In this document: positions 350 through 55,569 of the stretch, in pieces
Numbering within the stretch: position 1 is the stretch's first letter
How the letters are laid out: the number at the start of each line of letters is the position of its first letter
Assembly (NCBI GenBank): GCA_017547655.1
Contig: JAFYPF010000001.1
Span: 72,643 to 136,642 of the forward strand
Source: Clostridia bacterium
GTDB lineage: Bacteria > Bacillota > Clostridia > Oscillospirales > CAG-272
Direction of reading: 5' to 3'
DNA length: 64,000 bases
Notes under the pieces: model-generated
Told to the model about the DNA's origin: nothing
Seen by the model: the letters and a program-made list of their open reading frames with translations, nothing else
Databases searched by the model: none
Translations under genes and position numbers: made by a program

Positions 350-2221
350 ATGGAAAAGATTAAGAATTTTGAAGAACTTTCCGCTAAATGCGCTGTATGT
401 GCAGATGCATACGGCAAGAAAATTGAGGGCGGAAGTGGCAAGAGAGCTATAGTTCTTTGCGGTGGTACAGGTTGTATTTCCTCAAACTCTCTTGAAATAA
501 AGGCTAAATTTGAAAAGCTCGTAGAAGAAAAAGGGCTTTCCGATAAGGTTACTGTTAACCAGGTTGGTTGTTTCGGTTTCTGTTCTCAGGGACCTTTTGT
601 TAAGATTTATCCTGAAGACACTCTTTACAGACTCGTTACTATCGATGATGTTGAAGAGATTGTTGAAAAAGACATTATAGGCGGCGAAATTATAGATAGA
701 TTGCTCTATGTTGATCCCAAGACGCAGGAAAAGATTGTAAAGCAGGACGATATCGAATTCTACAAGAAGCAAGTTCGTATATCTCTCCACGGTTGTGGTA
801 CTATTGATCCGGAAAACATTGAAGAAGCTCTTGGTTCAGGTGCGTTTATCGGTCTTGCCAACGCTCTTAAGATGGATAGAAAGGCAGTTATTGATTCTGT
901 TCTTGCATCCGGTCTTCGCGGACGTGGCGGCGGCGGCTTCCCCACCGGTATGAAGTGGAACTTTGCTTACGGTCAGCCCGATGGCGAAAAGTACGTTGTA
1001 TGTAATGGTGACGAGGGTGACCCCGGCGCATTTATGGACAGATCTATTCTTGAAGGTAACCCCCTTGCGGTTATTGAAGGTATGGCTATTGCAGGTTATG
1101 CTATCGGCGCTCAAAATGGTTACTTCTATGTTCGTGCAGAGTATCCCATTGCTGTAAACAGACTTAAAATTGCTATTAAGCAGGCTGAAGAATTGGGACT
1201 TCTCGGTGACAATATTCTCGGCACAAACTTCAGCTTCCGTGTACATATCAGACTTGGTGCGGGTGCATTCGTTTGTGGTGAAGAGACTGCTCTTCTTAAC
1301 TCTATTGAAGGTCAGAGAGGTATGCCCAGACCTCGTCCTCCGTTCCCTGCAGTTAAGGGACTTTGGGGTTGTCCTACGATTGTTAACAACGTTGAATCGC
1401 TTGCTTGCGTACCTTACATACTCCGTGAGGGCGCTGAAAAGTTTGCTCAATACGGAACTGAAAAATCCAAGGGAACAAAAGTATTTGCTCTCGGAGGAAA
1501 GATTAACAATGTTGGTCTCGTTGAGATTCCTATGGGTACAACGCTCCGCGAACTTATTTATGATATCGGCGGCGGTATTCCCGACGGTAAGAAGTTTAAG
1601 GCTATTCAGACAGGTGGTCCTTCGGGCGGTTGCTTGACAGAAAAAGACCTTGACTCCGCTATTGACTTTGATACACTTGTTGCCAAGGGCTCAATGATGG
1701 GTTCGGGCGGTGCTATCGTTATGGACGAAGACAACTGTATGGTTGACGTTGCAAAATTCTATATGGAATTTATTTGCGACGAGTCTTGCGGTAAGTGTTC
1801 ACCTTGCCGTATCGGTACAAAGCGTTTGCTTGAACTTCTTAACAAGATTACCGACGGTAAGGCAACAATGAAGGATCTCGAAGAACTTGAAGAACTCAGT
1901 GAAACTATTAAGACAGGCTCTCTCTGCGCACTTGGTCAGACAGCAGCTAACCCCGTTCTTTCGACACTTCGTTCATTCAGAGAAGAATATGTTGCTCACG
2001 TTGTTGATAAGAAGTGTCCTGCAAAAGTATGTAAGAATCTTATGCAGTACGTTATTGAGGCTGATAAGTGTAAGAAGTGCTCACTCTGTGCTCGTCAGTG
2101 TCCTGTTAACGCTATTACAGGCGTTGTAGGTAAAGAACCCTACGTTATTGAACAGGATAAGTGTATTAAGTGCGGAATGTGCGTATCTTCTTGTAAGTTT
2201 AAGGCTATCATTAAGGAATAA
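350..2221 (+). CDS. hydB: [FeFe] hydrogenase NuoF-like flavoprotein subunit (HydB/HndC), NAD(P)H/FMN-binding with Fe-S domains
   Basis: 623 aa. It has an N-terminal thioredoxin-like 2Fe-2S region (CGGTGC...GCFGFCSQGP) and GRGGGGFPTG plus CNGDEGDPGAF, the NuoF FMN/NADH motifs. It also carries ESCGKCSPCR (N3-type 4Fe-4S) and two C-terminal CxxCxxCxxxCP ferredoxin motifs. Confidence 0.93.
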   Translation: MEKIKNFEELSAKCAVCADAYGKKIEGGSGKRAIVLCGGTGCISSNSLEIKAKFEKLVEEKGLSDKVTVNQVGCFGFCSQGPFVKIYPEDTLYRLVTIDDVEEIVEKDIIGGEIIDRLLYVDPKTQEKIVKQDDIEFYKKQVRISLHGCGTIDPENIEEALGSGAFIGLANALKMDRKAVIDSVLASGLRGRGGGGFPTGMKWNFAYGQPDGEKYVVCNGDEGDPGAFMDRSILEGNPLAVIEGMAIAGYAIGAQNGYFYVRAEYPIAVNRLKIAIKQAEELGLLGDNILGTNFSFRVHIRLGAGAFVCGEETALLNSIEGQRGMPRPRPPFPAVKGLWGCPTIVNNVESLACVPYILREGAEKFAQYGTEKSKGTKVFALGGKINNVGLVEIPMGTTLRELIYDIGGGIPDGKKFKAIQTGGPSGGCLTEKDLDSAIDFDTLVAKGSMMGSGGAIVMDEDNCMVDVAKFYMEFICDESCGKCSPCRIGTKRLLELLNKITDGKATMKDLEELEELSETIKTGSLCALGQTAANPVLSTLRSFREEYVAHVVDKKCPAKVCKNLMQYVIEADKCKKCSLCARQCPVNAITGVVGKEPYVIEQDKCIKCGMCVSSCKFKAIIKE

Positions 2222-30304: not shown

Positions 30305-30425
30305 AAGAAGTTAACGCAAAATGGAGAGTTTATAAATTCACTTGACATATCTGCAGTGTTGGAGCAATACTTATTGTTGACATTTACTTTTAGATAAAAA
30401 TATATTGAAAAATTTTAAAAAGCTC

Positions 30426-30454
30426 TTGACATTTGCAATTTATGGTGCTAAAAT
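30426..30454 (+). promoter_or_regulatory. Sigma-A promoter driving the T-box leader
   Basis: TTGACA (30426-30431), a 17-nt spacer, then TAAAAT (30449-30454) with TGn immediately upstream. Confidence 0.7.
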
Positions 30455-30481
30455 ATATAAAAATTTGAATATCACAAACAA

Positions 30482-30749
30482 CGACTATGATGAAGACGGT
30501 CGGAATGAGAAGCTTTTCAGAGAGTTGCCGGTGGGTGCGAGGCAATAGTAGATTTTTCCAATGACCTATCACTTCTGAGTCGGAGGACCGAAAGGTGTTG
30601 TCCGAGTAGACTCCTTCCGTATTGCTGCGTAAAAGCAAAGAGCTTGTTTGAGCTTGTTAAGTGACGGTGAAGAATTGATTTACCGTAATTTGAGTGGTAC
30701 CGCGGGTTTGATAACTCGTCTCAAAGAATTCTTTGGGGCGAGTTTTTTT
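30482..30749 (+). promoter_or_regulatory. T-box riboswitch leader (probable Ile, AUC specifier) with antiterminator/terminator
   Basis: - Stem I base cgact (30482-6) / agtcg (30578-82), and a GA/K-turn element (atgat).
- Helix gaag (30492-5) / cttc (30572-5).
- AGAGAG bulge at 30519-24 and a GGUGGGUGCGA distal loop.
- Specifier position AUC-A at 30568-71.
- T-box core aatttgagtggtaccgcg at 30687-30704.
- Terminator ctcgtctcaaag-aatt-ctttggggcgag plus T7, 30715-30749. Confidence 0.9.
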
Positions 30750-30809
30750 GTTTTATTCAAATCAGTAACCATTAAACAAAAACAGTTAGTGTTGAAAGGA
30801 GACAACAAA

Positions 30810-33113
30810 ATGGATTACAGTTTGAAAGACGTTGCAGGCAGAATCAAGGACCTGCGAGAAGCAAAAGGATACACACAAGAGGAGTTGGCAAAGCTCACAG
30901 GTGTATCGGCAGAAGATTATAAAGTTTTGGAAAAAGGCGAAACTGATTTTAGTTTTACTTTTATTTACAAGTGTGCAAAAGCTTGCGGTGTTGAAGTTGT
31001 AGATTTGCTTGAGGGAACAAGTACGACTTTGACTTCATTTGCTATCACAAGAAAAGGTGATGGTCTTAAAATTTTAAAACAGCATGGCGTTGAGTATAAC
31101 AACCTTGCGCCTAAATTTAAAGATAAACTTGCAGAGCCTTTCTTGGTTAAATTCCCATATCTTCCCGAGGAACAGAATGTTCCTATGAAGCTGAACTCTC
31201 ATAACGGTCAAGAGTTTGACGTTATTGTAAAGGGTTCGCTTAAGGTTCAGGTAGGTAATCACGTGGACGTGCTTAATGAAGGCGACTCGATTTTCTATAA
31301 CAGCCTTATTCCTCACGGTATGATTGCTGTCAGCGAGGGTGGCTGTGAATTCCATGCGGTTGTTCTTAATCCTCAAAATGGTCAGGTTAGTGAAGAATAT
31401 CCCGAAGCGCCCTATGTTGTTTCTAAAATTGTAGAAAAAGAAGAAAATACAACTACTGTTGCGGATAATTATGTAGAATCATTTTATGATGAAAACGGAG
31501 TATTCAGCGGAATCGAATTTAAAAATGATGATAAATTTAATTTTGCATTTGACTGCGTTGACGCTATTGCCGATAAGAACCCCGATAAACTTGCAATGCT
31601 GTGGGTTGGAAATGACAAATCCGATCGTAAATTTACTTTTAGCGATATGAAGAAATACTCGGCTAAAACAGCTAACTATTTTGAGTCACTCGGAATCAAA
31701 AAAGGTGATACGGTAATGCTCGTTCTTAAGCGTCATTATCAGTTCTGGTTCTGTATGCTTGCGCTTCATAAGCTTGGCGCAATTGCAATCCCTGCTACAA
31801 ATCAGCTTGTTGAACACGATTTTACATATAGATATAATGCTGCAAAGGTAAAGGCCATTGTTTGTACTGCTGACGGAGACGTATCTGCCGAAGCCGAAAA
31901 GGCGGCAGCTGAATTCCCCGATATGATTAAATTGTTGGTTGGCGGGAAAAAAGATGGTTGGAATGACTTTAACGTTGAAATGGAACGTTTTAGTACCCAC
32001 TACGCACGCACAGAAAATACACCTTGCGGCAACGATCCTATGCTTATGCTATTTACTTCGGGTACAACTGGTTATCCTCGTATTGCAACGCACTCATATA
32101 AATATGCATTAGGACATTATCCTACAGCAAAACATTGGCACAACGTAAATCCCAACGGTTTGCATTTCACAATTTCCGATACAGGTTGGGGTAAGGCGCT
32201 TTGGGGTAAGCTTTACGGTCAATGGCTCTGTGAGGCGGGTGTGTTCACATACGACTTTGACAGATTCCGTTCGGAAGATATACTTCCTATGTTTGCAAAA
32301 TACGGAATTACAACATTCTGTGCGCCTCCTACAATGTATCGTTTCTTTATTAAAGAAGATTTGTCAAAGTACGACCTTTCTTCTATTGAGTATGCAACGA
32401 CTGCCGGAGAGGCACTTAACCCCGAGGTGTTCAATCAGTTTAAGAAAGCAACGGGACTTACCATTATGGAAGGTTTTGGACAGACTGAAACCACACTTTC
32501 TATCGCAAACTTTGTTGGTTCTACTCCCAAAATCGGTTCTATGGGTAGACCGAGTCCTCTTTATGACGTTGTTGTTCTTGATCCCGACGGCAAGGAATGT
32601 AAAACGGGTGATACAGGCGAAATCTGTATTCGCGTAAAAGACGGCAAAGCACCTTGCGGACTCTTTATTGGTTATTATCTTGATGAAGAAAAGACAAAAG
32701 AAGTTTGGCATGACGGCTACTATCATACGGGCGATACTGCAACGATGGACGAAGAGGGCTACCTTTGGTACGTTGGTCGTATCGATGACGTTATCAAGTC
32801 TTCGGGTTATCGTATCGGTCCTTTCGAAATCGAAAGTGTAATTATGGAGCTTCCTTATGTTTTAGAGTGTGCAATTACACCTGTTCCCGATGAAGTTCGT
32901 GGACAGATTGTAAAAGCTACCATCGTTCTTGTAAAGGGAACTGTAGGTACTGATGAACTTAAAAAGGAAATTCAGGAATACGTTAAGACACATACAGCGC
33001 CCTACAAGTATCCCAGAATTGTTGAGTTTGTAGATGAACTTCCCAAGACTATCAGCGGTAAGGTAAGACGTGTAGAAATCCGTAAGAACGATATGGAAAA
33101 AATGAGCAAATAA
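30810..33113 (+). CDS. Fusion protein: XRE-family HTH + cupin sensor domain + medium/short-chain acyl-CoA synthetase (AMP-forming, ACSM/MACS-like)
   Basis: 767 aa counted from ATG 30810 (RBS aaaggagac).
- aa 1-65: HTH_3 (GYTQEELAKLTGVS).
- About aa 120-190: cupin (GDSIFYNSLIPHG).
- The rest is an adenylate-forming enzyme: LMLFTSGTTGYPR (A3), TAGEALN, GYYHTGD (A7), GRIDDVIKSSGYRIGP (A8), PKTISGKVRR (A10).
The upstream in-frame extension to 30648 lies inside the T-box RNA and is rejected. Confidence 0.88.
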   Translation: MDYSLKDVAGRIKDLREAKGYTQEELAKLTGVSAEDYKVLEKGETDFSFTFIYKCAKACGVEVVDLLEGTSTTLTSFAITRKGDGLKILKQHGVEYNNLAPKFKDKLAEPFLVKFPYLPEEQNVPMKLNSHNGQEFDVIVKGSLKVQVGNHVDVLNEGDSIFYNSLIPHGMIAVSEGGCEFHAVVLNPQNGQVSEEYPEAPYVVSKIVEKEENTTTVADNYVESFYDENGVFSGIEFKNDDKFNFAFDCVDAIADKNPDKLAMLWVGNDKSDRKFTFSDMKKYSAKTANYFESLGIKKGDTVMLVLKRHYQFWFCMLALHKLGAIAIPATNQLVEHDFTYRYNAAKVKAIVCTADGDVSAEAEKAAAEFPDMIKLLVGGKKDGWNDFNVEMERFSTHYARTENTPCGNDPMLMLFTSGTTGYPRIATHSYKYALGHYPTAKHWHNVNPNGLHFTISDTGWGKALWGKLYGQWLCEAGVFTYDFDRFRSEDILPMFAKYGITTFCAPPTMYRFFIKEDLSKYDLSSIEYATTAGEALNPEVFNQFKKATGLTIMEGFGQTETTLSIANFVGSTPKIGSMGRPSPLYDVVVLDPDGKECKTGDTGEICIRVKDGKAPCGLFIGYYLDEEKTKEVWHDGYYHTGDTATMDEEGYLWYVGRIDDVIKSSGYRIGPFEIESVIMELPYVLECAITPVPDEVRGQIVKATIVLVKGTVGTDELKKEIQEYVKTHTAPYKYPRIVEFVDELPKTISGKVRRVEIRKNDMEKMSK

Positions 33114-33463: not shown

Positions 33464-33540
33464 TGGTGGGCCATCAGGGACTCGAACCCCGGACCAACCG
33501 GTTATGAGCCGGTAGCTCTAACCAACTGAGCTAATGGCCC
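33464..33540 (-). tRNA. tRNA with CAU anticodon; elongator type, features favour tRNA-Ile2 (lysidine-modified) over tRNA-Met
   Basis: 77 nt with encoded CCA: GGGCCAT-TA-GCTC-AGTTGGTTA-GAGC-T-ACCGG-CTCATAA-CCGGT-TGGTC-CGGGG-TTCGAGT-CCCTG-ATGGCCC-A-CCA. The cloverleaf is perfect. It is not an initiator, because 1:72 is paired and the anticodon stem has no 3x GC. C4:G69 and C5:G68 resemble the TilS determinants of E. coli tRNA-Ile2. Confidence 0.93.
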
Positions 33541-33566: not shown

Positions 33567-33595
33567 ATTATATCATAAGATAACTTTTATGTCAA
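33567..33595 (-). promoter_or_regulatory. Sigma-A promoter for the tRNA gene
   Basis: On the minus strand: TTGACA (33595-33590), a 17-nt spacer, then TATAAT (33572-33567), about 26 nt upstream of tRNA position 1. Confidence 0.7.
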
Positions 33596-33661
33596 TATTA
33601 CATCAAAAGAAAAGTGTAAACAAAATATGAACGGGAGGCGTTTTGCCTCCCACCCGTAATA

Positions 33662-34881: not shown

Positions 34882-36978
34882 TTATTCTGTTATATTGAAA
34901 TACTTATTAAACAGTCTTTTGAGTGTAATACCGCAGTCATTACTTCCGCCCGCCTGTTCGATAACGCACGTTGCTACTATTTGCGGCTCATCATAGGGGG
35001 CAAATGCCATAAAAATACCATTGTTACTTTTTGTTTTTCCGACCTGCGCCGTTCCGGTTTTGCCTCCAAGCTCGATTGGATAGTCAGCAAACACGGGGGC
35101 TGCTGTACCGTTTTCCATAACGTTTCTCATACCAAGCCTTATTGTTTCAAGGTTTTCTTCGGAGAGCTGAACCGTATTTAATACGTTGGGAGTGGGTTCG
35201 TAGATTATTTCGTTTGTGCCGTATTCGCGTACCGAATGAAGTATGTGGGCCTGATATCTTGTTCCGCCGTTAATGAGGGTTGATAGGTACATTGATATTT
35301 GCATCGGTGTGAAGTTATTGTCAGACTGTCCGATTGATGCTTGTATAGTATCTCCGGGAACCCATACCTTGTTGATGGAGGCTCTGTATTCGGGACCTGC
35401 CAATATTCCTGTAGCTTCGGGGATTTCTATTCCCGTAAGCACGCCAAGGCCTAATGATTTACAATATTCGTTAAGTCTTTCTATGGTCAATTGTCTGCCT
35501 ACGTCATAAAAGAAATAGTTGCACGAATTTTGTATTGCTGATATAACGTTGACGTTTCCGTGGCCGTAGCCGTAAGAGGTATATATCCAACAGTGCGGCT
35601 GAAAGTCGTTGTAATACTTATACACCCCGCTGTCGAAAATGGTTGTATTTCTGTTTATAATCCCATTTTCGAGAGCTGCAGCCGCCACGCTTATCTTAAA
35701 TGTTGAGCCGGGTTCGTATGTACCCATAAGCGCTCTGTTGAAGAGGGGATTGTTTTCTGTGTTAAGCAAGTTGTTGTATTCTTTTACGTAGGTTGTTAAA
35801 TTAAAAGTGGGGTTAGAGGCAATTGCCAACACTTCGCCGTTGTGTGGGTTAACTACGGTAGCAGCTCCCGAGCTTACGTCTTCGCCGATATATTGAGAAA
35901 TTTTTGCATCCGGACTAATTGTGCCGTCGGGGAGTGTATATTTTGCCGTATCTTGCGCTATCTTTTCGTTGGCTTTGTTTCGAATATACTGTATATTATA
36001 AGCTAACGCATCTTCGGCGGTAATTTGCATATCAATGTCTATTGTAAGATATACGTCCTTACCGGGAACCGGCTCTTTCTTATAGTATTCGTCTACTCTG
36101 TTTCCTTGCTTATCTTCAACTATAACAAGTATTCCGTCTTGTCCGCGTAGATATTCTTCAAAGGCTTCTTCTGCACCTCCGATGCCGACAATGGCGTCCA
36201 TAGAGTAGCCTTTTTCCGTGTAATAATCAAGCTTTTCCGAGGGGATTTTTCCCGTTCTGCCCAGTATGTGACTTGCATAGGACGGATAGTTATAGACTCT
36301 TTGAGCCTTTTTTTCAATACATACGCCGTTTAAGTTTGCTTCCTCAATTGCCGTAAGCTGAACTTTTGAAATATCATAAGCAACAGTAAATGGATTGAGA
36401 GAGCTGAAATTCAGCCTTTCGGATTCATAGCGTATCGCCATAACGGAAAGGTAATATTCTTTTCCGACTGTAAGATTACCGTTTGAATCAATAAGCCCAT
36501 ATCGTTTTTCTAAAAATTCTGCCAAGCTAACAGCTTCAGTATCTCGGGAGAGTGCATATCTGTCGAGCATTTTTAAAAAATATTTTTCTTTTTGGCTGTC
36601 GTTTTCATACGCTTTGTATTCAATAATTTCTTCATTTTTTTGGAGAGGGAAATATTCTGTTTCAACGGAGTCTTCTAAAATATCTATAAGAGATACTATT
36701 TCGCGGTTTATTGCATAATTGGTTTTTGGGAAACTGCCGCCGTCAAGATATACGTTGTAGGTGTATTCGTTGGATACCAACGGATTACCGTTTCTGTCAA
36801 ATATTTCTCCGCGCAGAGCTTTTACTGTTAAAGTTCTGACGGTTAAGTCTGAAGTGTTTGCTTTTTCGGGGGCAGTTACCTGCAAGTAAATTATTCTTCC
36901 GACGAAAAATGTACATATTAAAACGAAAAGGGAAGCAAGTAATATGTATCTAAAATGATGTCTGCCCGATCTTTTCAA
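34882..36978 (-). CDS. mrdA: Penicillin-binding protein 2 (elongation-specific class B transpeptidase)
   Basis: 698 aa. It has an N-terminal TM and the SxxK (GSTFK), SxN (NSCN) and KTG (GGKTGTA) motifs. It follows mreBCD. Confidence 0.88.
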   Translation of the reverse strand: MKRSGRHHFRYILLASLFVLICTFFVGRIIYLQVTAPEKANTSDLTVRTLTVKALRGEIFDRNGNPLVSNEYTYNVYLDGGSFPKTNYAINREIVSLIDILEDSVETEYFPLQKNEEIIEYKAYENDSQKEKYFLKMLDRYALSRDTEAVSLAEFLEKRYGLIDSNGNLTVGKEYYLSVMAIRYESERLNFSSLNPFTVAYDISKVQLTAIEEANLNGVCIEKKAQRVYNYPSYASHILGRTGKIPSEKLDYYTEKGYSMDAIVGIGGAEEAFEEYLRGQDGILVIVEDKQGNRVDEYYKKEPVPGKDVYLTIDIDMQITAEDALAYNIQYIRNKANEKIAQDTAKYTLPDGTISPDAKISQYIGEDVSSGAATVVNPHNGEVLAIASNPTFNLTTYVKEYNNLLNTENNPLFNRALMGTYEPGSTFKISVAAAALENGIINRNTTIFDSGVYKYYNDFQPHCWIYTSYGYGHGNVNVISAIQNSCNYFFYDVGRQLTIERLNEYCKSLGLGVLTGIEIPEATGILAGPEYRASINKVWVPGDTIQASIGQSDNNFTPMQISMYLSTLINGGTRYQAHILHSVREYGTNEIIYEPTPNVLNTVQLSEENLETIRLGMRNVMENGTAAPVFADYPIELGGKTGTAQVGKTKSNNGIFMAFAPYDEPQIVATCVIEQAGGSNDCGITLKRLFNKYFNITE

Positions 36979-37535
36979 TACAATCCGCCTCTCTTTCTAA
37001 TTGCATATATAGGTAACTCAAGTGCTTTTACCAGAATAAATACGGGAATACATATAACGAGTGTATATAGAAATTCGGGTAAAAGTGTGTATACAAAAAG
37101 CATCTTAAAATCAATGCTGCCAAAATATCTTAACAAATGAAAAACAAATGAAAATGCTGTTCTTGAGAGGCATAAAAGCGGAAGCGAAACGAGATATGCA
37201 GCAAATCGGGCATTATTTCTTGCGTTAAATCCTATTCTGCCGCATACGTATCCCACTAAAGTGTAAAACAACGGAAGAAGAGAAATGTCTGTGCTTCCTA
37301 AAGCTTCAACACAAAGTCCTGCCCAAAGCCCGAAAAGAGCCGCTGTGTTTTCGCCTTTGTATATACCAATGCAGCATATAGCTCCTATTATAATATCCGC
37401 TACTGCGTAAAATACTGTTAGACGAGGCATAAGTGTTGTTTGAAGAACGGCAAGTAATGCTCCCAAAATTCCATATAAAATTATATCGAGGATAATGGAA
37501 AGGTAAGAAAATTTATTATTCATAAGCAGCCTCAA
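36975..37535 (-). CDS. mreD: Rod shape-determining protein MreD
   Basis: 186 aa polytopic membrane protein located directly after mreC. Confidence 0.75.
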   Translation of the reverse strand: MRLLMNNKFSYLSIILDIILYGILGALLAVLQTTLMPRLTVFYAVADIIIGAICCIGIYKGENTAALFGLWAGLCVEALGSTDISLLPLFYTLVGYVCGRIGFNARNNARFAAYLVSLPLLCLSRTAFSFVFHLLRYFGSIDFKMLFVYTLLPEFLYTLVICIPVFILVKALELPIYAIRKRGGLY

Positions 37536-38355
37536 ATTCGGTTATGACCATAACGGTATTTACATTTTCCAAATCTGCCGCAGGTTTTATATATGCTATT
37601 TTTTCTCTTGTAAGTGAATCGGTTTCTATTGTTTCAACCGTGCCTATCAACATTCCTTTGGGAAACATAGCGCTGTCATCGGAGGTTATAATTCTGTCTC
37701 CTACTTCAATGTTCGTGTTTTTGGAAAGATATGAAAGTACACACAGTCCTTTTTTTGATGCGGTAAATGAGCCGGAACAAATGCCTGTTTCGCCGGTCCT
37801 TTCAACAACAGCGCCAAGTGAAACGTCGGGCTCTGTCAATGGTGTAACTTTAGCCCAAGTTAAGCCTACTTCGCTGATGCAACCTAAAACACCGTATTTG
37901 TCAATAACGGGCATCCCGGGGGTTAAGCCGTGGAGTGTACCCTTGTTGATGGTGTATAACACGGTATAAGTGGTTGATTGCCTACCCGTAATCTTTGCGT
38001 TTTCAAAGCTACAGTCAAGATGCTCTTCCTTTATGCCGAAAAATTCTTTCAGGGTTTCATTTTCCTGCAAAGCAAGTTCTGCATTTGCGAGAGCTTCTTG
38101 ATTTTCAGCTAACTGTTGCTTTAAATCTTCATTTTCTTTTTTTAGCTCGTTATATTTTTCTTTTGAAGAAAAAATATCTTCAAAACCGTCAAAAACAAAG
38201 TTTAATCCTTTTTGCACGGGTGTTAAAACAATACCTATGGCATTTCTGACATAAGACGTGTATCCCAAAGCGGATATAAAGGACGTTGTGCCTACAAGCA
38301 ATATCGCTATTACTATCAGCACTATCATAAATTTGTTTTGAAACAGATTTTTCAA
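37516..38355 (-). CDS. mreC: Rod shape-determining protein MreC
   Basis: 279 aa. It has an N-terminal TM, a coiled coil (ELKKENEDLKQQLAENQEAL) and a beta-rich C-domain (GMPV...GLIGTV-like). Confidence 0.88.
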   Translation of the reverse strand: MKNLFQNKFMIVLIVIAILLVGTTSFISALGYTSYVRNAIGIVLTPVQKGLNFVFDGFEDIFSSKEKYNELKKENEDLKQQLAENQEALANAELALQENETLKEFFGIKEEHLDCSFENAKITGRQSTTYTVLYTINKGTLHGLTPGMPVIDKYGVLGCISEVGLTWAKVTPLTEPDVSLGAVVERTGETGICSGSFTASKKGLCVLSYLSKNTNIEVGDRIITSDDSAMFPKGMLIGTVETIETDSLTREKIAYIKPAADLENVNTVMVITEFEAAYE

Positions 38356-38373
38356 TTTGGTTTTCTCCTATGT

Positions 38374-39372
38374 TTATTTTTCGTTAAAGCTTATTGCGTC
38401 AGGGAGAAGCTCGATGATTTTTTGAATTCCCACAACACAGCAGTCAAGGGGATTTTGTGCGCATTTTACTTCAAAACCAAACATTTTTGAATAATATTCT
38501 TGTATTCCGTCGATTAAAGCTCCGCCGCCCGAAAGTGTTAATCCGTATTCGTAAATGTCGGCTGAAAGCTCGGGGTGAAGCTTTTCTAAAGTTGCTTTTA
38601 TACATTCGGTGATTTTTGAAAGCTGTTCTTCTATAGGCTCTTTTAGCTCTGTGTTTTTTACCGTTATAGTCAGAGGTAATCCACTTGCGGCATCTCTTCC
38701 GTAGATTTCCTGCGTTTTTTCTTCGCTTGTTAACGACAGAGTGCCGAGCGTTCTTTTTAATTCTTCGGCATCTGTGAGTGTTACTATAAGATTATGCTTT
38801 CTCTTTAGGTATGCCGCAATTGCCTCGTCAATCTCGTCGCCGCCAACCCTTACCGAGTTGCTTTGTATTATTCCTCCGAGACTCAATACCGCCACGTCGG
38901 TAGTTCCTCCGCCGATATTAACTATCATATTTCCTCTCGGTTCTTCAATGGGCAGTCCCGCTCCCATTGCCGCCGCAAAAGGTGATGGGATAATTGCAAC
39001 GCTCCGAGCTCCTGCTTCTGCGGCTGCTTCTTCGAGCGCTCTTTTTTCAACTTCCGTAATGCTGTTTGATACGGCAAGTACAACGTTAGGTCTGTTTAAG
39101 CTTCCTTTGCCCGATGCTTTTACAAAAAAACCGTGGAGCATAGCAACCGTTATATCAAATTCGGAAATAACACCGTCTTTTATCGGTTTTACCGCTTTTA
39201 CTCCCGCAGGTTCCTTGCCTATCATATTGTACGCATCTTCGCCGAGAGCTACAACGCGGCTTTTTTCTTCGTCTATAGCAATAACAGATGGCTCTCTTAC
39301 GACGATCCCTCTTCCTTTTCTGTATATGTATGTATTTGATGTGCCGAGGTCAATTCCAATAATTCTTGCCAT
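38374..39372 (-). CDS. mreB: Rod shape-determining actin homologue MreB
   Basis: 332 aa. It has IGIDLGTSNT, NIGGGTTDVAV and LSGGGALI, the actin-fold phosphate and adenosine motifs. Confidence 0.93.
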   Translation of the reverse strand: MARIIGIDLGTSNTYIYRKGRGIVVREPSVIAIDEEKSRVVALGEDAYNMIGKEPAGVKAVKPIKDGVISEFDITVAMLHGFFVKASGKGSLNRPNVVLAVSNSITEVEKRALEEAAAEAGARSVAIIPSPFAAAMGAGLPIEEPRGNMIVNIGGGTTDVAVLSLGGIIQSNSVRVGGDEIDEAIAAYLKRKHNLIVTLTDAEELKRTLGTLSLTSEEKTQEIYGRDAASGLPLTITVKNTELKEPIEEQLSKITECIKATLEKLHPELSADIYEYGLTLSGGGALIDGIQEYYSKMFGFEVKCAQNPLDCCVVGIQKIIELLPDAISFNEK

Positions 39373-53430: not shown

Positions 53431-55569
53431 ATGGATTTTTTAACACCGATTGGCTCTTTGGCGGGTATTGGAAAAAAGAGAAGAGAATCATTTTTTGCTC
53501 TTGGGATTACCAATGTAGAAGAACTTTTATATCATTTTCCCCGAGCATACCAAAACAGAGGAAACATTTTATCTCTTGCTATGACTCCCGACGGTACGGT
53601 TGGCGCATTTGTTCTTACCGTTGCTTCAAATCCGCAGACGTTTATGCTCAAAAACAGAAAGCAAATTACAAAGTTTATTGCTTTTGATGATACGGGGAAA
53701 TGTACGGTTACATTTTTTAATCAGCCTTTTGTGAAAGACGTTTTTCATATAGGCGACGAATTCAGATTCTACGGAAAATTGAACGTTAAATACGGCAGCA
53801 GAGAAATGTCATCGCCTATATACGAGCCTATTGTTTCGGGAAAGAAATTGCCTTCGCTCGTGCCCGTCTATCCTCTTACGGAAGGATTGACGCAAAAGAT
53901 ACTTAAATCAACTACAGAATATGCGCTTAATACTCTTATATATGAAAACTATGATTTTCCCGAGGTGTTTAGAAAGATAACCATTGAAAAAATGGGGCTT
54001 ATGAGTCTTAAAGAAGCTTTGAGGGAGATTCATTTTCCTACCGATATAGAGAAAGTAAAAAAAGCAAGGGAGCGTTTTGTTTTTGAGGAGCTTTACGCAT
54101 TTGCTTTGGGGCTTTCTATTTCCAAAAAGAACATAAAAAAGAACGGTAACGGTATAGTTATGAAAGATGCCGACGTTTCGGATTTTTTGAAGCTTTTACC
54201 ATATTCTTTGACGGGGGCGCAGTCACGGTCCATAAAAGAAATAATTGCCGATATGTCAAATAAGCAAGGCGTTTCTATGAGCCGACTTCTTTCGGGAGAC
54301 GTTGGAAGCGGTAAGACTGTTTGCGCGGCGGCGGCTTTATACGTTGCTGTAAAAAACGGAGCGCAGGGAGCTTTTATGGCGCCTACCGAAATATTGGCGA
54401 CACAGCACTATAATGAAATGTCTGTTCTTTTTGAAAGGTTGAATATAAAAACTGCACTTTTGACCGGCTCGACACCCGCTTCCGAGAAGAGAAGGGTTTG
54501 CGATTTGGTTTCAGTGGGCGGTATTGATATCGTTATAGGGACTCATGCTTTGCTGAATGATAAATTGGTTTTCAAAAAGCTTGGATTAGTTATAACCGAT
54601 GAACAGCATAGATTTGGAGTTCGCCAACGTTCATTACTTGCCGAAAAAACAAAAGAAATGGGATATAATCCTCACGTTCTTGTTATGTCGGCAACACCTA
54701 TACCGCGAACTCTTGCTTTGATACTATATGGTGATCTTGATATTTCCGTTTTGGACGAGCTTCCGCCGGGCAGAAAAAAGGTTGATACTTTCTTGGTTGA
54801 TGAAAGCTATAGAGATAGACTTAACGGCTTTATTCGAAAAAATGCATTGTCAAACCAGGTTTATATAGTATGTCCTCTTGTGGAGGATGCCGACGGAGAG
54901 GAAGAGGCGCTTTTGCCTTTTGATTTTACTTCCGACGATATGGAGGTAAATGAGAAAAAGTATATGATGTCTGCTACAACACTTGCAGAAAAGTTGCAGA
55001 ATGAAGTTTTCCCCGATATTCGTGTAGGTCTTATTCACGGTAAAATGAAGGCTTCGGAAAAGAATGACGTTATGCGGGATTTTGAGCAGAATAAGATAAA
55101 AATTCTCGTTTCGACTACTGTTATAGAGGTTGGAGTTAATGTGCCTAACGCTGTGCTGATGGTTATTGAAAACGCTGAAAGATTTGGTCTTTCGCAGCTA
55201 CATCAGTTGAGGGGAAGAGTAGGCAGAGGGGCAGATAAATCATATTGTATTCTCGTTTCTTCAACCGAGAATGAAAAGTCAAGGGAAAGACTTAACGTTA
55301 TGTGTTCGACGAATAACGGATATAAGATTGCCGAAGCCGATCTTGAACAACGCGGCCCCGGTGACTTCTTCCCGAATGCTGTGGGTGACGTTAGACAAAG
55401 CGGAGGTTTGAGGTTTAGATTTACTTCGCTTTGCGATATGGGGTTGTTGAAGAGGGCGTTTGAAGAGGCGGAAAGCGTACTTGCCGAGGATGATAAGCTT
55501 TCACATCCTGAAAATAAAGGTGCGTTTGACTATATGCAGAAGCTCTTTTCAAGACTCCGAAATTCATAA
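53431..55569 (+). CDS. recG: ATP-dependent DNA helicase RecG
   Basis: 712 aa. It has an N-terminal wedge/OB domain, GDVGSGKT (Walker A), DEQHRFG, SATPIPRT and QLRGRVGRG. Confidence 0.95.
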   Translation: MDFLTPIGSLAGIGKKRRESFFALGITNVEELLYHFPRAYQNRGNILSLAMTPDGTVGAFVLTVASNPQTFMLKNRKQITKFIAFDDTGKCTVTFFNQPFVKDVFHIGDEFRFYGKLNVKYGSREMSSPIYEPIVSGKKLPSLVPVYPLTEGLTQKILKSTTEYALNTLIYENYDFPEVFRKITIEKMGLMSLKEALREIHFPTDIEKVKKARERFVFEELYAFALGLSISKKNIKKNGNGIVMKDADVSDFLKLLPYSLTGAQSRSIKEIIADMSNKQGVSMSRLLSGDVGSGKTVCAAAALYVAVKNGAQGAFMAPTEILATQHYNEMSVLFERLNIKTALLTGSTPASEKRRVCDLVSVGGIDIVIGTHALLNDKLVFKKLGLVITDEQHRFGVRQRSLLAEKTKEMGYNPHVLVMSATPIPRTLALILYGDLDISVLDELPPGRKKVDTFLVDESYRDRLNGFIRKNALSNQVYIVCPLVEDADGEEEALLPFDFTSDDMEVNEKKYMMSATTLAEKLQNEVFPDIRVGLIHGKMKASEKNDVMRDFEQNKIKILVSTTVIEVGVNVPNAVLMVIENAERFGLSQLHQLRGRVGRGADKSYCILVSSTENEKSRERLNVMCSTNNGYKIAEADLEQRGPGDFFPNAVGDVRQSGGLRFRFTSLCDMGLLKRAFEEAESVLAEDDKLSHPENKGAFDYMQKLFSRLRNS

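What the first reader, a model, noticed from the sequence alone, without database searches (positions are those of the whole stretch)
30402..33113. Single polypeptide fusing an XRE HTH, a cupin ligand-binding domain and a complete adenylate-forming acyl-CoA synthetase (BirA-like regulator-enzyme logic?)
The 767-aa product has three parts:
- a DNA-binding HTH_3 domain (GYTQEELAKLTGVS);
- a cupin_2 domain, which is the usual small-molecule sensor partner of XRE regulators;
- after a linker of about 60 aa, a full ACSM/MACS-like synthetase with A3, A7, A8 and A10 motifs intact.

Regulator and enzyme are normally separate genes. A covalent fusion recalls BirA, where an adenylating enzyme doubles as a repressor and its acyl-adenylate acts as co-repressor.

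The gene would then be under two layers of control. The first is tRNA charging through the T-box. The second is possible autoregulation through the HTH.

An imperfect inverted repeat brackets the promoter: ATATTGAAAAATTT (30402-30415) and AAAAATTTGAATAT (30459-30472), 11 of 14 positions complementary. It is a candidate operator, but it is weak evidence in AT-rich DNA.
Basis: partly seen in the sequence, partly recalled or inferred. Interest (0 to 1): 0.65.

Follow-up and report, generated by a model that had tools for sequence, protein, structure and literature searches.

The report
T-box-gated branched-acid CoA ligase with regulator-like head

Summary
**Observation: confirmed.** The gene at 30810-33113 encodes one 767-aa protein: HTH_3, Cupin_2, then a complete Macs-type acyl-CoA synthetase. 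A T-box leader lies upstream at 30478-30726.

**Not an artefact.** More than 120 protein clusters, and 68 of 80 related genome loci, carry the same intact architecture.

**What it most likely does.**
- The T-box specifier is AUC (Ile).
- The closest solved enzyme is the *M. acetivorans* Macs, which prefers 2-methylbutyrate.
- Many genomes have a tandem paralogue behind a Val (GUA/GUC) T-box. Where the flank reaches far enough, a VorB-type 2-ketoisovalerate:ferredoxin oxidoreductase follows it.
- Within the synthetase, the Ile and Val types differ consistently only at residues 461 and 464, beside the known acyl-pocket Trp.

**BirA-like autoregulation: not supported.**
- The proposed inverted repeat is at chance level. 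Its upstream arm lies in an UP-like A/T tract.
- Its downstream arm belongs to a conserved 5' leader element. That element's real partner sits just after the terminator, and it behaves like an RNA helix.
- No palindromic operator is shared by 89 promoters.
- The HTH is acidic in every family member.

The role of the invariant HTH-cupin head remains open.

The parts
30399..30424 (+). A/T-rich UP-element-like tract upstream of the -35.
   Evidence: Semi-conserved as GAAAAATTTTTnAAAAAA in 24 orthologous promoters. T-tract/A-tract pairs are the only palindrome class enriched in 89 promoters. The UP-element reading is inference.
30426..30454 (+). Sigma-70-type promoter: -35 TTGACA (30426-30431), then an extended -10 TGcTAAAAT (30446-30454).
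   Evidence: 11/12 consensus match with TG. Both hexamers are conserved in 24 orthologues while the spacer varies.
30462..30475 (+). Conserved 5' leader element AATTTGAATATCAC at or next to the presumed transcription start.
   Evidence: Near-invariant in 24 clade-A loci while the flanking discriminator varies. Its core ATTTGAATA (30463-30471) is complementary to 30754-30762.
30478..30726 (+). T-box leader (stem I with K-turn, specifier loop, stem II/III region, T-box sequence and antiterminator).
   Evidence: RF00230, 90.4 bits, E = 2e-20, full model 1-219. The TGGTACCGCG motif is present 75-190 nt upstream of the start in 72 of 80 loci.
30568..30570 (+). Specifier codon AUC (Ile), followed by A at 30571.
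   Evidence: Codon column of the Rfam alignment. ATC sits at this position in 69 family T-boxes while the neighbouring bases vary.
30713..30751 (+). Intrinsic terminator of the T-box (14-bp stem plus T-run).
   Evidence: The alternative antiterminator is predicted in the consensus fold.
30754..30762 (+). TATTCAAAT, the partner of the 5' leader element. Together they form a candidate RNA helix that closes the whole leader in read-through transcripts.
   Evidence: 9/9 complementary. Conserved right after the T-run in clade A. RNAalifold pairs 9 columns with 0 broken pairs in 24 sequences; the only changes are U-A to U-G.
30795..30803 (+). Ribosome-binding site GAAAGGAGA.
   Evidence: Read from the sequence. 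Conserved before the ATG in orthologues.
30810..33113 (+). CDS of the 767-aa HTH-cupin-acyl-CoA synthetase fusion.
30822..31013 (+). XRE-type five-helix HTH domain (aa 5-68). It is acidic.
   Evidence: Pfam HTH_3. AlphaFold2 helices at 5-19, 23-30, 34-41, 49-58 and 63-68. Net charge is -1 to -10 in 80 homologues.
31065..31367 (+). Cupin barrel (aa 86-186) with invariant H131, E135 and H169 (nt 31200-31202, 31212-31214, 31314-31316).
   Evidence: Pfam Cupin_2. pLDDT above 90. Invariant columns. The triad aligns with Psf4/HppE.
31368..31517 (+). Variable linker (aa 187-236). Residues 189-213 are predicted disordered.
   Evidence: pLDDT about 33. Only 1 invariant column in 46.
31518..33110 (+). 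Macs/ACSM-type adenylate-forming acyl-CoA synthetase (aa 237-767).
   Evidence: 3etc, E = 2e-201. Best NCBIfam match is MbcS at 444 bits, below its cutoff of 850.
32190..32204 (+). Acyl-pocket segment G461-K462-A463-L464-W465. Residues 461 and 464 are the only synthetase positions that separate the Ile-type from the Val-type paralogues.
   Evidence: W465 aligns with Trp259 and K462 with Lys256 of the M. acetivorans Macs (alignment; residue roles from PMC10455477; the numbering offset is my inference).

Best explanation
The gene encodes a short branched-chain acyl-CoA synthetase, most likely a 2-methylbutyrate:CoA ligase. Its transcription beyond the leader is allowed only when tRNA-Ile is uncharged, through a T-box with an AUC specifier.

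The 2-methylbutyryl-CoA product is then reductively carboxylated by a 2-oxoacid:ferredoxin oxidoreductase to 3-methyl-2-oxopentanoate and transaminated to isoleucine. This is the classical rumen route from branched-chain volatile fatty acids to branched-chain amino acids.

The gene belongs to a family, widespread in gut and rumen Clostridia, with Ile-specific and Val-specific members. Each member sits behind the matching T-box.

The conserved N-terminal HTH-cupin head is most likely a metal- or small-molecule-binding regulatory module that acts on the enzyme itself, for example by sensing substrate, 2-oxoacid or end product. It is probably not a repressor of the gene's own promoter.

In the window's clade, the 5' end of the leader also pairs with a segment just past the terminator. 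This would close the leader in read-through transcripts.

**Shown:** the architecture, the T-box and its specifier, the match between paralogue type and specifier, the adjacency to Vor, the pocket differences, and the absence of a conserved operator.

**Inferred:** the substrate, the direction of flux, the role of the head, and the RNA helix.
For: - **T-box.** Full-length T-box with an AUC specifier. ATC is conserved in 69 family T-boxes. The codon column is confirmed by covariance-model alignment for an Ile and a Val example in L043.
- **Closest enzyme.** The closest solved structure is 3etc, the *M. acetivorans* Macs (E = 2e-201). Its preferred substrate is 2-methylbutyrate (PMC10455477). 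The best NCBIfam model is the *S. aureus* 2-methylbutyryl-CoA synthetase MbcS.
- **Clusters match specifiers.** The 80 full-length proteins fall into three clusters (Ile-A, Ile-B, Val) that match the T-box specifier without exception.
- **Pocket differences.** Within the 530-aa synthetase, only G461 to A and L464 to M separate Ile from Val types. These flank the residue equivalent to Macs Trp259. The Ile type shares Gly with Macs, and the Val type has the bulkier Ala, as expected for C5 versus C4 acids.
- **Vor adjacency.** Val-type genes are followed on the same strand by a P-loop NTPase in 16 loci. Where the flank reaches (L042, L061, L070, L078), a 2x[4Fe-4S] delta ORF, VorB (NF005507, 556 bits against a cutoff of 399), a TPP beta subunit and a gamma subunit follow.
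- **Against self-repression.**
- **Head under selection.** The HTH has 17% invariant columns and the cupin 21%, against 2% in the linker.
- **Background.** Branched-chain volatile fatty acids are growth factors for ruminococci and are incorporated into branched-chain amino acids (Allison et al. 1962, cited in PMC7356843).
Against: - No enzymology: the substrate and the direction of flux are inferred.
- The window itself holds no Vor genes. The window's own neighbours are not conserved near the gene in other genomes.
- The score against the MbcS model is well below its curated cutoff.
- The two discriminating pocket positions could reflect one old divergence rather than selection for specificity.
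- The proposed cis-regulatory role of the head has no direct evidence. XRE-cupin proteins that have been studied are DNA-binding repressors of neighbouring metabolic genes (PMC7901475).
- The RNA helix shows no double compensatory changes, because its 5' arm is invariant.
Confidence: 0.55

Rival explanations
1. Trigger-enzyme reading. The HTH-cupin head binds DNA as a dimer and represses this promoter or other promoters. Binding of substrate, acyl-AMP or acyl-CoA releases it. The gene would then need both Ile starvation (T-box) and available precursor.
For: - HTH_3 is a significant match above Pfam's cutoff.
- AlphaFold2 gives a canonical five-helix XRE bundle.
- The best full-length sequence match in PDB for the head is a V. 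cholerae HTH_3-cupin putative regulator (1y9q).
- Characterised XRE-cupin proteins are local repressors that sense the pathway precursor through the cupin (PMC7901475).
- The HTH is conserved over more than 50% divergence.
- TTGAATA-like words recur near the start site in a minority of distant family promoters.
Against: - The proposed operator is at chance level and is not conserved as a repeat.
- The conserved arm behaves like one strand of an RNA helix.
- No shared palindrome in 89 promoters.
- The HTH has net charge -1 to -10 in all 80 members, with conserved E35 and E/D36 in the recognition helix. By contrast, the aligned 1y9q segment is basic (sequence, my count).
- In many family promoters only 5-15 nt separate the -10 from stem I, which leaves no room for a downstream operator.
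Confidence: 0.25
2. The head is a second catalytic domain: a mononuclear-metal cupin with an HTH-like lid, as in HppE, Psf4, HEPD and MPnS. It would carry out a reaction coupled to acid activation, such as isomerisation or epimerisation of the acid or the 2-oxoacid.
For: - The top structural matches are HppE, Psf4, HEPD and MPnS.
- H131-x3-E135...H169 and the LNEGDSIF...PH segment align with Psf4.
- The triad and several polar cupin residues are invariant.
- Sister systems fuse other metal-enzyme folds to CoA ligases: an AP_endonuc_2 TIM barrel in the Leu-T-box operon and Glyoxalase/VOC in P0129.
- A CooC/NUBPL-like P-loop NTPase, possibly a metallochaperone, is a conserved neighbour of the Val type.
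Against: - The known HTH-cupin enzymes use O2 or H2O2, which is implausible in these strict anaerobes (my knowledge).
- The ligase-Vor-transaminase route needs no extra chemical step.
- Isobutyrate is achiral, so an epimerase cannot explain the Val type.
- From memory, regulators such as PuuR also carry the H-x3-E...H pattern, so the triad would not discriminate; this was not checked here.
Confidence: 0.1
3. The enzymology is the same but the purpose differs. The acyl-CoA primes branched-chain fatty-acid synthesis (MbcS-like), sparing Ile when it is scarce, rather than being carboxylated to the amino acid. Alternatively, the Ile-type enzyme activates propionate for 2-oxobutyrate synthesis.
For: - The best family model is MbcS, which serves branched-chain fatty-acid synthesis in S. 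aureus.
- No Vor genes lie in the window or next to clade-A genes.
- Macs also adenylates C3-C8 acids.
Against: - T-boxes report amino-acid-specific tRNA charging.
- Co-transcribing a ligase with Vor under a Val T-box makes sense only in the carboxylating direction. Oxidative Vor would make the ligase redundant (inference).
- The Ile type has the larger pocket (Gly, as in Macs) and the Val type the smaller. This is the opposite of what a propionate-using Ile type would predict.
Confidence: 0.1

Closest known systems
[quoted passage not shown]
   Same: The synthetase part (aa 237-762) aligns end to end with 3etc at E = 2e-201, with all core motifs. It also shows the alternative acyl pocket: the W465 equivalent of Trp259, and Gly at 461 as in Macs. 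These enzymes prefer 2-methylbutyrate and isobutyrate.
   Different: Macs and MbcS are stand-alone proteins of about 530-560 aa, with no HTH-cupin head and no known T-box. The score against the MbcS model (444 bits) is far below its equivalog cutoff of 850.
XRE-cupin transcription factors (PuuR, PauR, PsdR, ErfA; V. cholerae 1y9q)
   Same: Same two-domain order, with an HTH_3 five-helix bundle followed by a Cupin_2 barrel, and about the same size (190 aa). Like them, it is associated with one specific metabolic enzyme.
   Different: It is covalently fused to the enzyme instead of being encoded next to it. The HTH is acidic. No palindromic operator was detected at family promoters. Known members are stand-alone dimeric repressors.
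T-box regulons of amino-acid biosynthesis and transport genes
   Same: Canonical stem I, specifier, T-box sequence and terminator/antiterminator. The specifier matches the amino acid whose supply the downstream gene would restore.
   Different: The regulated gene is an acid-activating CoA ligase, with Vor in the Val operon. This is a salvage route from volatile fatty acids, not a de novo pathway gene, an aminoacyl-tRNA synthetase or a transporter. I found no report of this target in the searchable literature. In clade A the leader also has a 5'/post-terminator closing helix.
Bifunctional enzyme-repressors ('trigger enzymes'): BirA, PutA, NadR
   Same: An enzyme and a DNA-binding-type fold in one chain. 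BirA is also an adenylate-forming enzyme (my knowledge).
   Different: There is no evidence of an operator at its own promoter, and the HTH type differs. Control by tRNA charging is already provided in cis by RNA.
HppE / Psf4 / HEPD / MPnS (HTH-like domain plus cupin iron enzymes)
   Same: They are the best structural matches for the head. The H-x3-E...H triad and the LNEGDSIF...PH segment are shared.
   Different: Those are oxygen- or peroxide-dependent phosphonate enzymes from aerobes, not fused to a synthetase. Sequence identity is 22-24% and rmsd about 10 A, because the domain orientation differs.

Membership tests
T-box leader (Rfam RF00230) | Match to the covariance model over its full length | tested here: met
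   90.4 bits, E = 2e-20, model positions 1-219 of 219. This is 2.6 bits under the curated gathering score of 93. Family T-boxes in L043 score 86.7 and 90.4.
T-box leader (Rfam RF00230) | Specifier codon in the stem I loop followed by a purine, plus a UGGN T-box sequence and a competing terminator/antiterminator | tested here: met
   AUC-A at 30568-30571. UGGUACCGCG at 30695-30704. Terminator at 30713-30744. The antiterminator appears in the consensus fold. The S-turn (AGUA) is deleted in the alignment.
T-box leader (Rfam RF00230) | Read-through induced by uncharged cognate tRNA | not testable with these tools
   Needs in vitro transcription or a reporter assay.
ANL superfamily, Macs/ACSM-type acyl-CoA synthetase | AMP-binding and AMP-binding_C domains with core motifs A3, A7, A8 and A10 | tested here: met
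   The motifs can be read in the translation and align with 3etc.
ANL superfamily, Macs/ACSM-type acyl-CoA synthetase | Macs-type acyl pocket: Trp259 equivalent present, and Gly in place of the Acs Trp | tested here: met
   W465 aligns with the Trp assigned as Trp259 (with residue roles). The numbering offset is inferred from Gly459, Tyr460 and Lys461.
ANL superfamily, Macs/ACSM-type acyl-CoA synthetase | 2-Methylbutyrate as preferred substrate | not testable with these tools
   Inferred from homology, the Ile specifier and the G461/A461 contrast.
NCBIfam MbcS equivalog (NF047394) | Score at or above the curated cutoff | tested here: not met
   444 bits against a cutoff of 850. It is related to MbcS but is not an MbcS orthologue.
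XRE-cupin transcription factors | N-terminal HTH_3 followed by Cupin_2 | tested here: met
XRE-cupin transcription factors | Stand-alone protein of about 180-200 aa encoded next to its target | tested here: not met
   Fused in all 68 loci with a complete gene. No split version was found beside the unfused homologue P0125.
XRE-cupin transcription factors | Palindromic operator at the regulated promoter | tested here: not met
No enriched palindrome other than A/T tracts in 89 promoters. Operators elsewhere in the genome were not searched.
XRE-cupin transcription factors | Sequence-specific DNA binding released by a ligand | not testable with these tools
   Only indirect evidence: the HTH is acidic and the recognition helix carries conserved Glu/Asp.
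BirA-like bifunctional enzyme-repressor | Enzyme and DNA-binding fold in one chain | tested here: met
BirA-like bifunctional enzyme-repressor | Binds an operator in its own promoter, with the adenylate as co-repressor | tested here: inconclusive
   No operator is detectable by comparative analysis. Binding itself was not tested.
HppE-class HTH-like plus cupin metalloenzymes | 2-His-1-carboxylate triad in the cupin, with an alpha-helical HTH-like domain | tested here: met
   H131, E135 and H169 are invariant and align with Psf4. These enzymes are the top fold matches.
HppE-class HTH-like plus cupin metalloenzymes | Phosphonate gene-cluster context and oxidative chemistry | tested here: not met
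   The neighbours are T-boxes, CoA ligases, Vor and LeuA-like genes. No phosphonate genes were seen. The hosts are anaerobic gut Clostridia.

The most novel reading that the evidence does not exclude
The HTH-cupin head is a working nucleic-acid-binding or effector-sensing switch. That would make this protein a new class of trigger enzyme: an adenylate-forming CoA ligase whose fused XRE-cupin domain reports precursor availability, layered on a T-box that reports tRNA-Ile charging. The two together would form a two-input AND gate built from one RNA and one polypeptide. It would be duplicated with re-tuned specificity for Val and shared by hundreds of gut and rumen species.
Probability: 0.25. Interest if true: 0.8.

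Novelty: new variant of a known kind. Interest (0 to 1): 0.62.

Why it matters
Since the 1960s, cellulolytic and other gut and rumen Firmicutes have been known to need isobutyrate, 2-methylbutyrate and isovalerate, and to build Val, Ile and Leu from them. Isoacids are now used as feed additives. I found no paper that links this route to these genes or to a T-box.

Here the T-box specifiers act as built-in labels. They assign an Ile-specific and a Val-specific CoA ligase, and for Val a co-transcribed Vor, to this route in many uncultured species.

This gives concrete candidates for:
- enzymology;
- isotope tracing;
- metabolic models of amino-acid cross-feeding.

It also extends the known T-box regulon from de novo synthesis and uptake to salvage from fermentation acids.

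The invariant but unexplained HTH-cupin head, and the analogous TIM-barrel head in the Leu operon, suggest an unrecognised layer of control or chemistry on these ligases.

Tried and rejected
- **Frameshift or assembly artefact: rejected.** The same intact ORF occurs in more than 120 protein clusters and 68 genome loci.
It fails the shuffle test and is not conserved as a repeat.
- **Palindrome search across 89 family promoters.** It found only A/T tracts, plus a TCACA-N9-TGTGA pair that is part of the leader and K-turn.
- **CodY-box reading of AATTTGAATATCAC: dropped.** By eye it matches 8 of 15 consensus positions, which is too weak.
- **Split versions.** The nearest unfused homologue (P0125) has no T-box and no XRE-cupin neighbour. 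P0123 has an unrelated lipoprotein-like N-terminus.
- **Conservation of the window's neighbours (Mem_trans, AraC, VanY, LRR, PBP2) near the gene in 83 loci.** None found. A role for the upstream Mem_trans transporter in acid uptake is therefore unsupported.
- **Vor, P-loop NTPase or LeuA-like genes in the window.** None found.
- **Ile-versus-Val discriminating positions as a clue to the cupin ligand.** 11 of 13 relaxed positions lie in the head. The head also evolves faster and the Val clade is shallow, so this says little.
- **Full-length AlphaFold2 with a diverse alignment.** A shallow alignment would not have given a reliable inter-domain arrangement, so I did not run it.
- **Literature searches** for the fusion or for T-box control of an acyl-CoA synthetase found nothing relevant.

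Full report
**1. What is there**

The ORF starts at ATG 30810, preceded by GAAAGGAGA, and stops at 33113, giving 767 aa. Pfam finds four domains:

| Domain | Residues | E-value |
|---|---|---|
| HTH_3 | 12-65 | 2.8e-11 |
| Cupin_2 | 129-184 | 3.8e-8 |
| AMP-binding | 253-610 | 5e-57 |
| AMP-binding_C | 673-751 | 1.7e-21 |

Upstream features:
- A near-consensus promoter: TTGACA-17-TAAAAT with a TG.
- A complete T-box leader at 30478-30726. It scores 90.4 bits against a gathering score of 93, with E = 2e-20.
- The T-box terminator at 30713-30744.

At gathering threshold the only Rfam hit in the whole window is a tRNA. The T-box therefore appears only in the permissive search, but its features are canonical.

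**2. The fusion is real and old**

- The protein search returned at least 120 clusters at 87-93% identity. All are about 766 aa with all domains. Their names are generic, such as 'AMP-binding protein' or 'acetyl-CoA synthetase'.
- In the library of 50% cluster representatives, full fusions appear at 88%, 54% and 41% identity. Several N-terminal fragments also appear. Unfused Macs-like enzymes start at about 58% identity.
- A genome scan with an alignment of the N-terminal 250 aa confirmed 492 stretches in species-representative genomes.
- The best 80 stretches are all gut or rumen Clostridia MAGs: Acutalibacteraceae, Oscillospiraceae, Ruminococcus, some Lachnospiraceae and Christensenellaceae.
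- Wherever the contig allows, the ORF is 745-769 aa.

**3. The T-box tells what the enzyme is for**

- The exact T-box core TGGTACCGCG lies 75-190 nt upstream of the start in 72 of 80 loci. The rest are mostly truncated, or are second genes of an operon.
- In the specifier loop the triplet ATC is constant while the bases before it vary. It is followed by A, G or C and the 4-bp lower stem. In the window this is AUC at 30568-30570.
- Many loci have a second T-box about 2.6 kb away whose specifier is GUA or GUC, meaning Val. The wobble change GUA/GUC, and the form GUC-A-CUUC in L064 and L076, rule out a Cys (UGU) reading.
- The Rfam alignment places GUA and AUC in the codon columns of the two L043 T-boxes.
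- The gene behind the Val T-box is again an HTH-cupin-synthetase fusion of 762-765 aa.
- The 80 full-length proteins fall into three clusters: Ile-A (which includes the window), Ile-B and Val. Cluster and specifier agree without exception.

**4. Substrate inference**

- The synthetase aligns over its full length with PDB 3etc, the *M. acetivorans* Macs, at E = 2e-201.
- That enzyme prefers 2-methylbutyrate and has an alternative acyl pocket built around Trp259 (PMC10455477).
- The best NCBIfam model is *S. aureus* MbcS, well below its cutoff.
- I compared 57 Ile-type with 17 Val-type proteins. The only synthetase positions that separate them are 461 (Gly versus Ala) and 464 (Leu versus Met).
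- Both positions lie in the segment W460-G-K-A-L-W465. This aligns with Macs ...W-G-K-C-V-W..., where the second Trp is Trp259 and the Lys is Lys256. I derived the numbering offset from Gly459, Tyr460 and Lys461.
- The Ile type keeps the Macs Gly and the Val type has a bulkier residue. That fits a C5 versus a C4 acid, and argues against propionate as the Ile-type substrate.

**5. Pathway context**

- Val-type genes are followed by a 221-aa P-loop NTPase of the CbiA/ParA/NUBPL type in 16 loci.
- Where the 5-kb flank reaches (L042, L061, L070, L078), four further genes follow:
  - a small 2x[4Fe-4S] ORF;
  - an alpha subunit that passes the NCBIfam VorB model (556 bits against a cutoff of 399);
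  - a TPP beta subunit;
  - a gamma subunit.
- All of these lie on the same strand with short or overlapping gaps.
- A ligase co-transcribed with Vor under a Val-starvation switch is what reductive carboxylation of isobutyryl-CoA to 2-ketoisovalerate needs.
- That rumen bacteria make branched-chain amino acids this way is classical knowledge (Allison et al. 1962, as cited in PMC7356843).
- In the window itself no Vor gene is present. Its neighbours (Mem_trans, AraC, VanY, BspA-LRR, PBP2/MreCB) are not conserved near the gene elsewhere. The T-box plus gene therefore behaves as a self-contained unit.

**6. The proposed operator**

- The 11/14 repeat is real but not unusual. Shuffles of the 174-nt, 25% GC spacer give about 4 such pairs on average, and 82% of shuffles have at least one.
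- I aligned 24 orthologous promoters. The conserved parts are:
  - the -35 and -10 hexamers;
  - a near-invariant 14-mer, AATTTGAATATCAC, at the presumed start site (window 30462-30475), which holds part of arm 2.
- The spacer and the discriminator are free to vary.
- The 14-mer's true partner is TATTCAAAT at 30754-30762, immediately after the terminator T-run, with 9/9 complementarity. It is conserved there in clade A.
- Internal variants of the 3' arm are TATTCAGAT, TATTCGAAT and TATTCGGAT. All are A-to-G changes opposite U, so RNA pairing is kept.
- RNAalifold on 24 leaders predicts this closing helix together with the antiterminator. Across its 9 pairs, 0 are broken and 8 cells show U-A to U-G.
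- There are no double compensatory changes, so this is suggestive rather than proven. A helix that sequesters the 5' end only in read-through transcripts could stabilise them; that is speculation.
- In the other clades the -10 is often only 5-15 nt from stem I, and nothing comparable is conserved.
- A search for gapped palindromes in 89 promoters found only A/T tracts.

**7. The head**

- AlphaFold2 on a 10-sequence alignment gives a five-helix bundle (aa 5-68), a confident cupin barrel (aa 86-186, pLDDT above 90) and a disordered linker (aa 189-213).
- Foldseek's best PDB matches are HppE, the uncharacterised *V. cholerae* HTH_3-cupin protein 1y9q, Psf4, HEPD and MPnS.
- By sequence, 1y9q matches the whole head (1.8e-5). 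Psf4 matches the cupin, including H-x3-E, LNEGDSIF and PH.
- H131, E135 and H169 are invariant, as are C179 and several Gly, Asp and Gln residues. A metal site is therefore likely.
- From memory, regulators such as PuuR show the same H-x3-E...H pattern, so the triad does not separate regulators from enzymes.
- What is unusual is the HTH. Its net charge is -1 to -10 (mean -5.8) in all 80 members. The start of the recognition helix carries conserved Glu35 and Glu/Asp36. Known XRE repressors have polar or basic residues at these positions (my knowledge; the 1y9q segment is basic).
- Both head domains are under clear purifying selection, with 17% and 21% invariant columns against 2% in the linker. 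The head therefore does something.
- Studied XRE-cupin proteins are local repressors that sense a precursor metabolite (PMC7901475), which keeps the regulator reading alive.
- I rank the options as follows: a cis-acting sensor on the enzyme, then a DNA-binding regulator, then a second catalytic activity.

**8. Comparison and novelty**

- The parts are known kinds: a T-box, a Macs-type ligase and an XRE-cupin fold.
- What appears undescribed in the searchable literature:
  - the covalent fusion;
  - its strict coupling to Ile- or Val-specific T-boxes;
  - the paralogue pair with a two-residue pocket switch;
  - the Vor linkage.
- I therefore file it as a new variant of known kinds.
- Confidence differs by part. 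It is good for the salvage function. It is low for the mechanism of the head. It is fairly high that the specific operator proposal is wrong.

Noticed in passing
L008:625-4596, L016, L024, L004, L010, L014, L020, L036, L042, L052 (directly upstream of the Ile T-box gene): A Leu-specifier (CUC) T-box precedes a LeuA-like gene (HMGL-like plus LeuA_dimer, below the IPMS cutoffs). Next comes an approximately 820-aa fusion of a xylose-isomerase-like TIM barrel (AP_endonuc_2) to a FadD-type CoA ligase. In six loci an Amidohydro_2 protein follows. With the Ile and Val units this forms a three-amino-acid 'starvation island'.
   Followed up: partly
L043:9907-10572, L061:7268-7951, L067:9942-10607 and 13 other loci; L066:7544-8300: A 221-aa P-loop NTPase (CbiA/ParA/NUBPL-like) always follows the Val-type fusion. 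In L066 it has its own T-box, whose specifier I could not read with confidence (GCA or UGC), and VorB-like genes follow it. It may be an Fe-S or metal-delivery factor.
   Followed up: partly
P0124, P0139, P0129 (representative proteins): The same Macs clade is also found fused at its C-terminus to a GNAT acetyltransferase or to a Glyoxalase/VOC domain. The latter is the fold of methylmalonyl-CoA epimerase.
   Followed up: no
L050:2529-7271, L056:2515-: Two fusion genes lie back to back, 17 nt apart in L050, behind a single Ile T-box and with no second T-box between them.
   Followed up: no
window 30462-30475 and 30754-30762: The conserved 5' leader element and its complement just after the T-box terminator form a candidate leader-closing RNA helix specific to the window's clade. 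Such a helix is not part of the standard T-box model.
   Followed up: yes
window 33464-33540 (-) and 33567-33595 (-): A tRNA with a CAT anticodon (called Met; an Ile2/lysidine tRNA was not excluded) sits behind a perfect 12/12 consensus promoter with TG. A strong terminator lies at 33629-33655 (-), upstream of that promoter and just after the LRR gene; I did not assign it to a gene.
   Followed up: no
window 4940-25498 (+): A long same-strand run of about 20 ORFs. Of those scanned, one is an O-acyltransferase (Acyl_transf_3), one a Polysacc_synt_3 flippase and one a UDP-GlcNAc 2-epimerase. This looks like a surface-polysaccharide cluster.
   Followed up: partly
window 30342-30454: Three TTGACA boxes in tandem (30342, 30377, 30426) precede the leader. 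Only the last aligns with the conserved promoter of the orthologues.
   Followed up: partly
window 350-2221 (+); 34882-39372 (-); 53431-55569 (+): General context: a NuoF/HydB-like flavoprotein with Fe-S domains; a PBP2, unassigned 186-aa ORF, MreC and MreB operon; and RecG.
   Followed up: no
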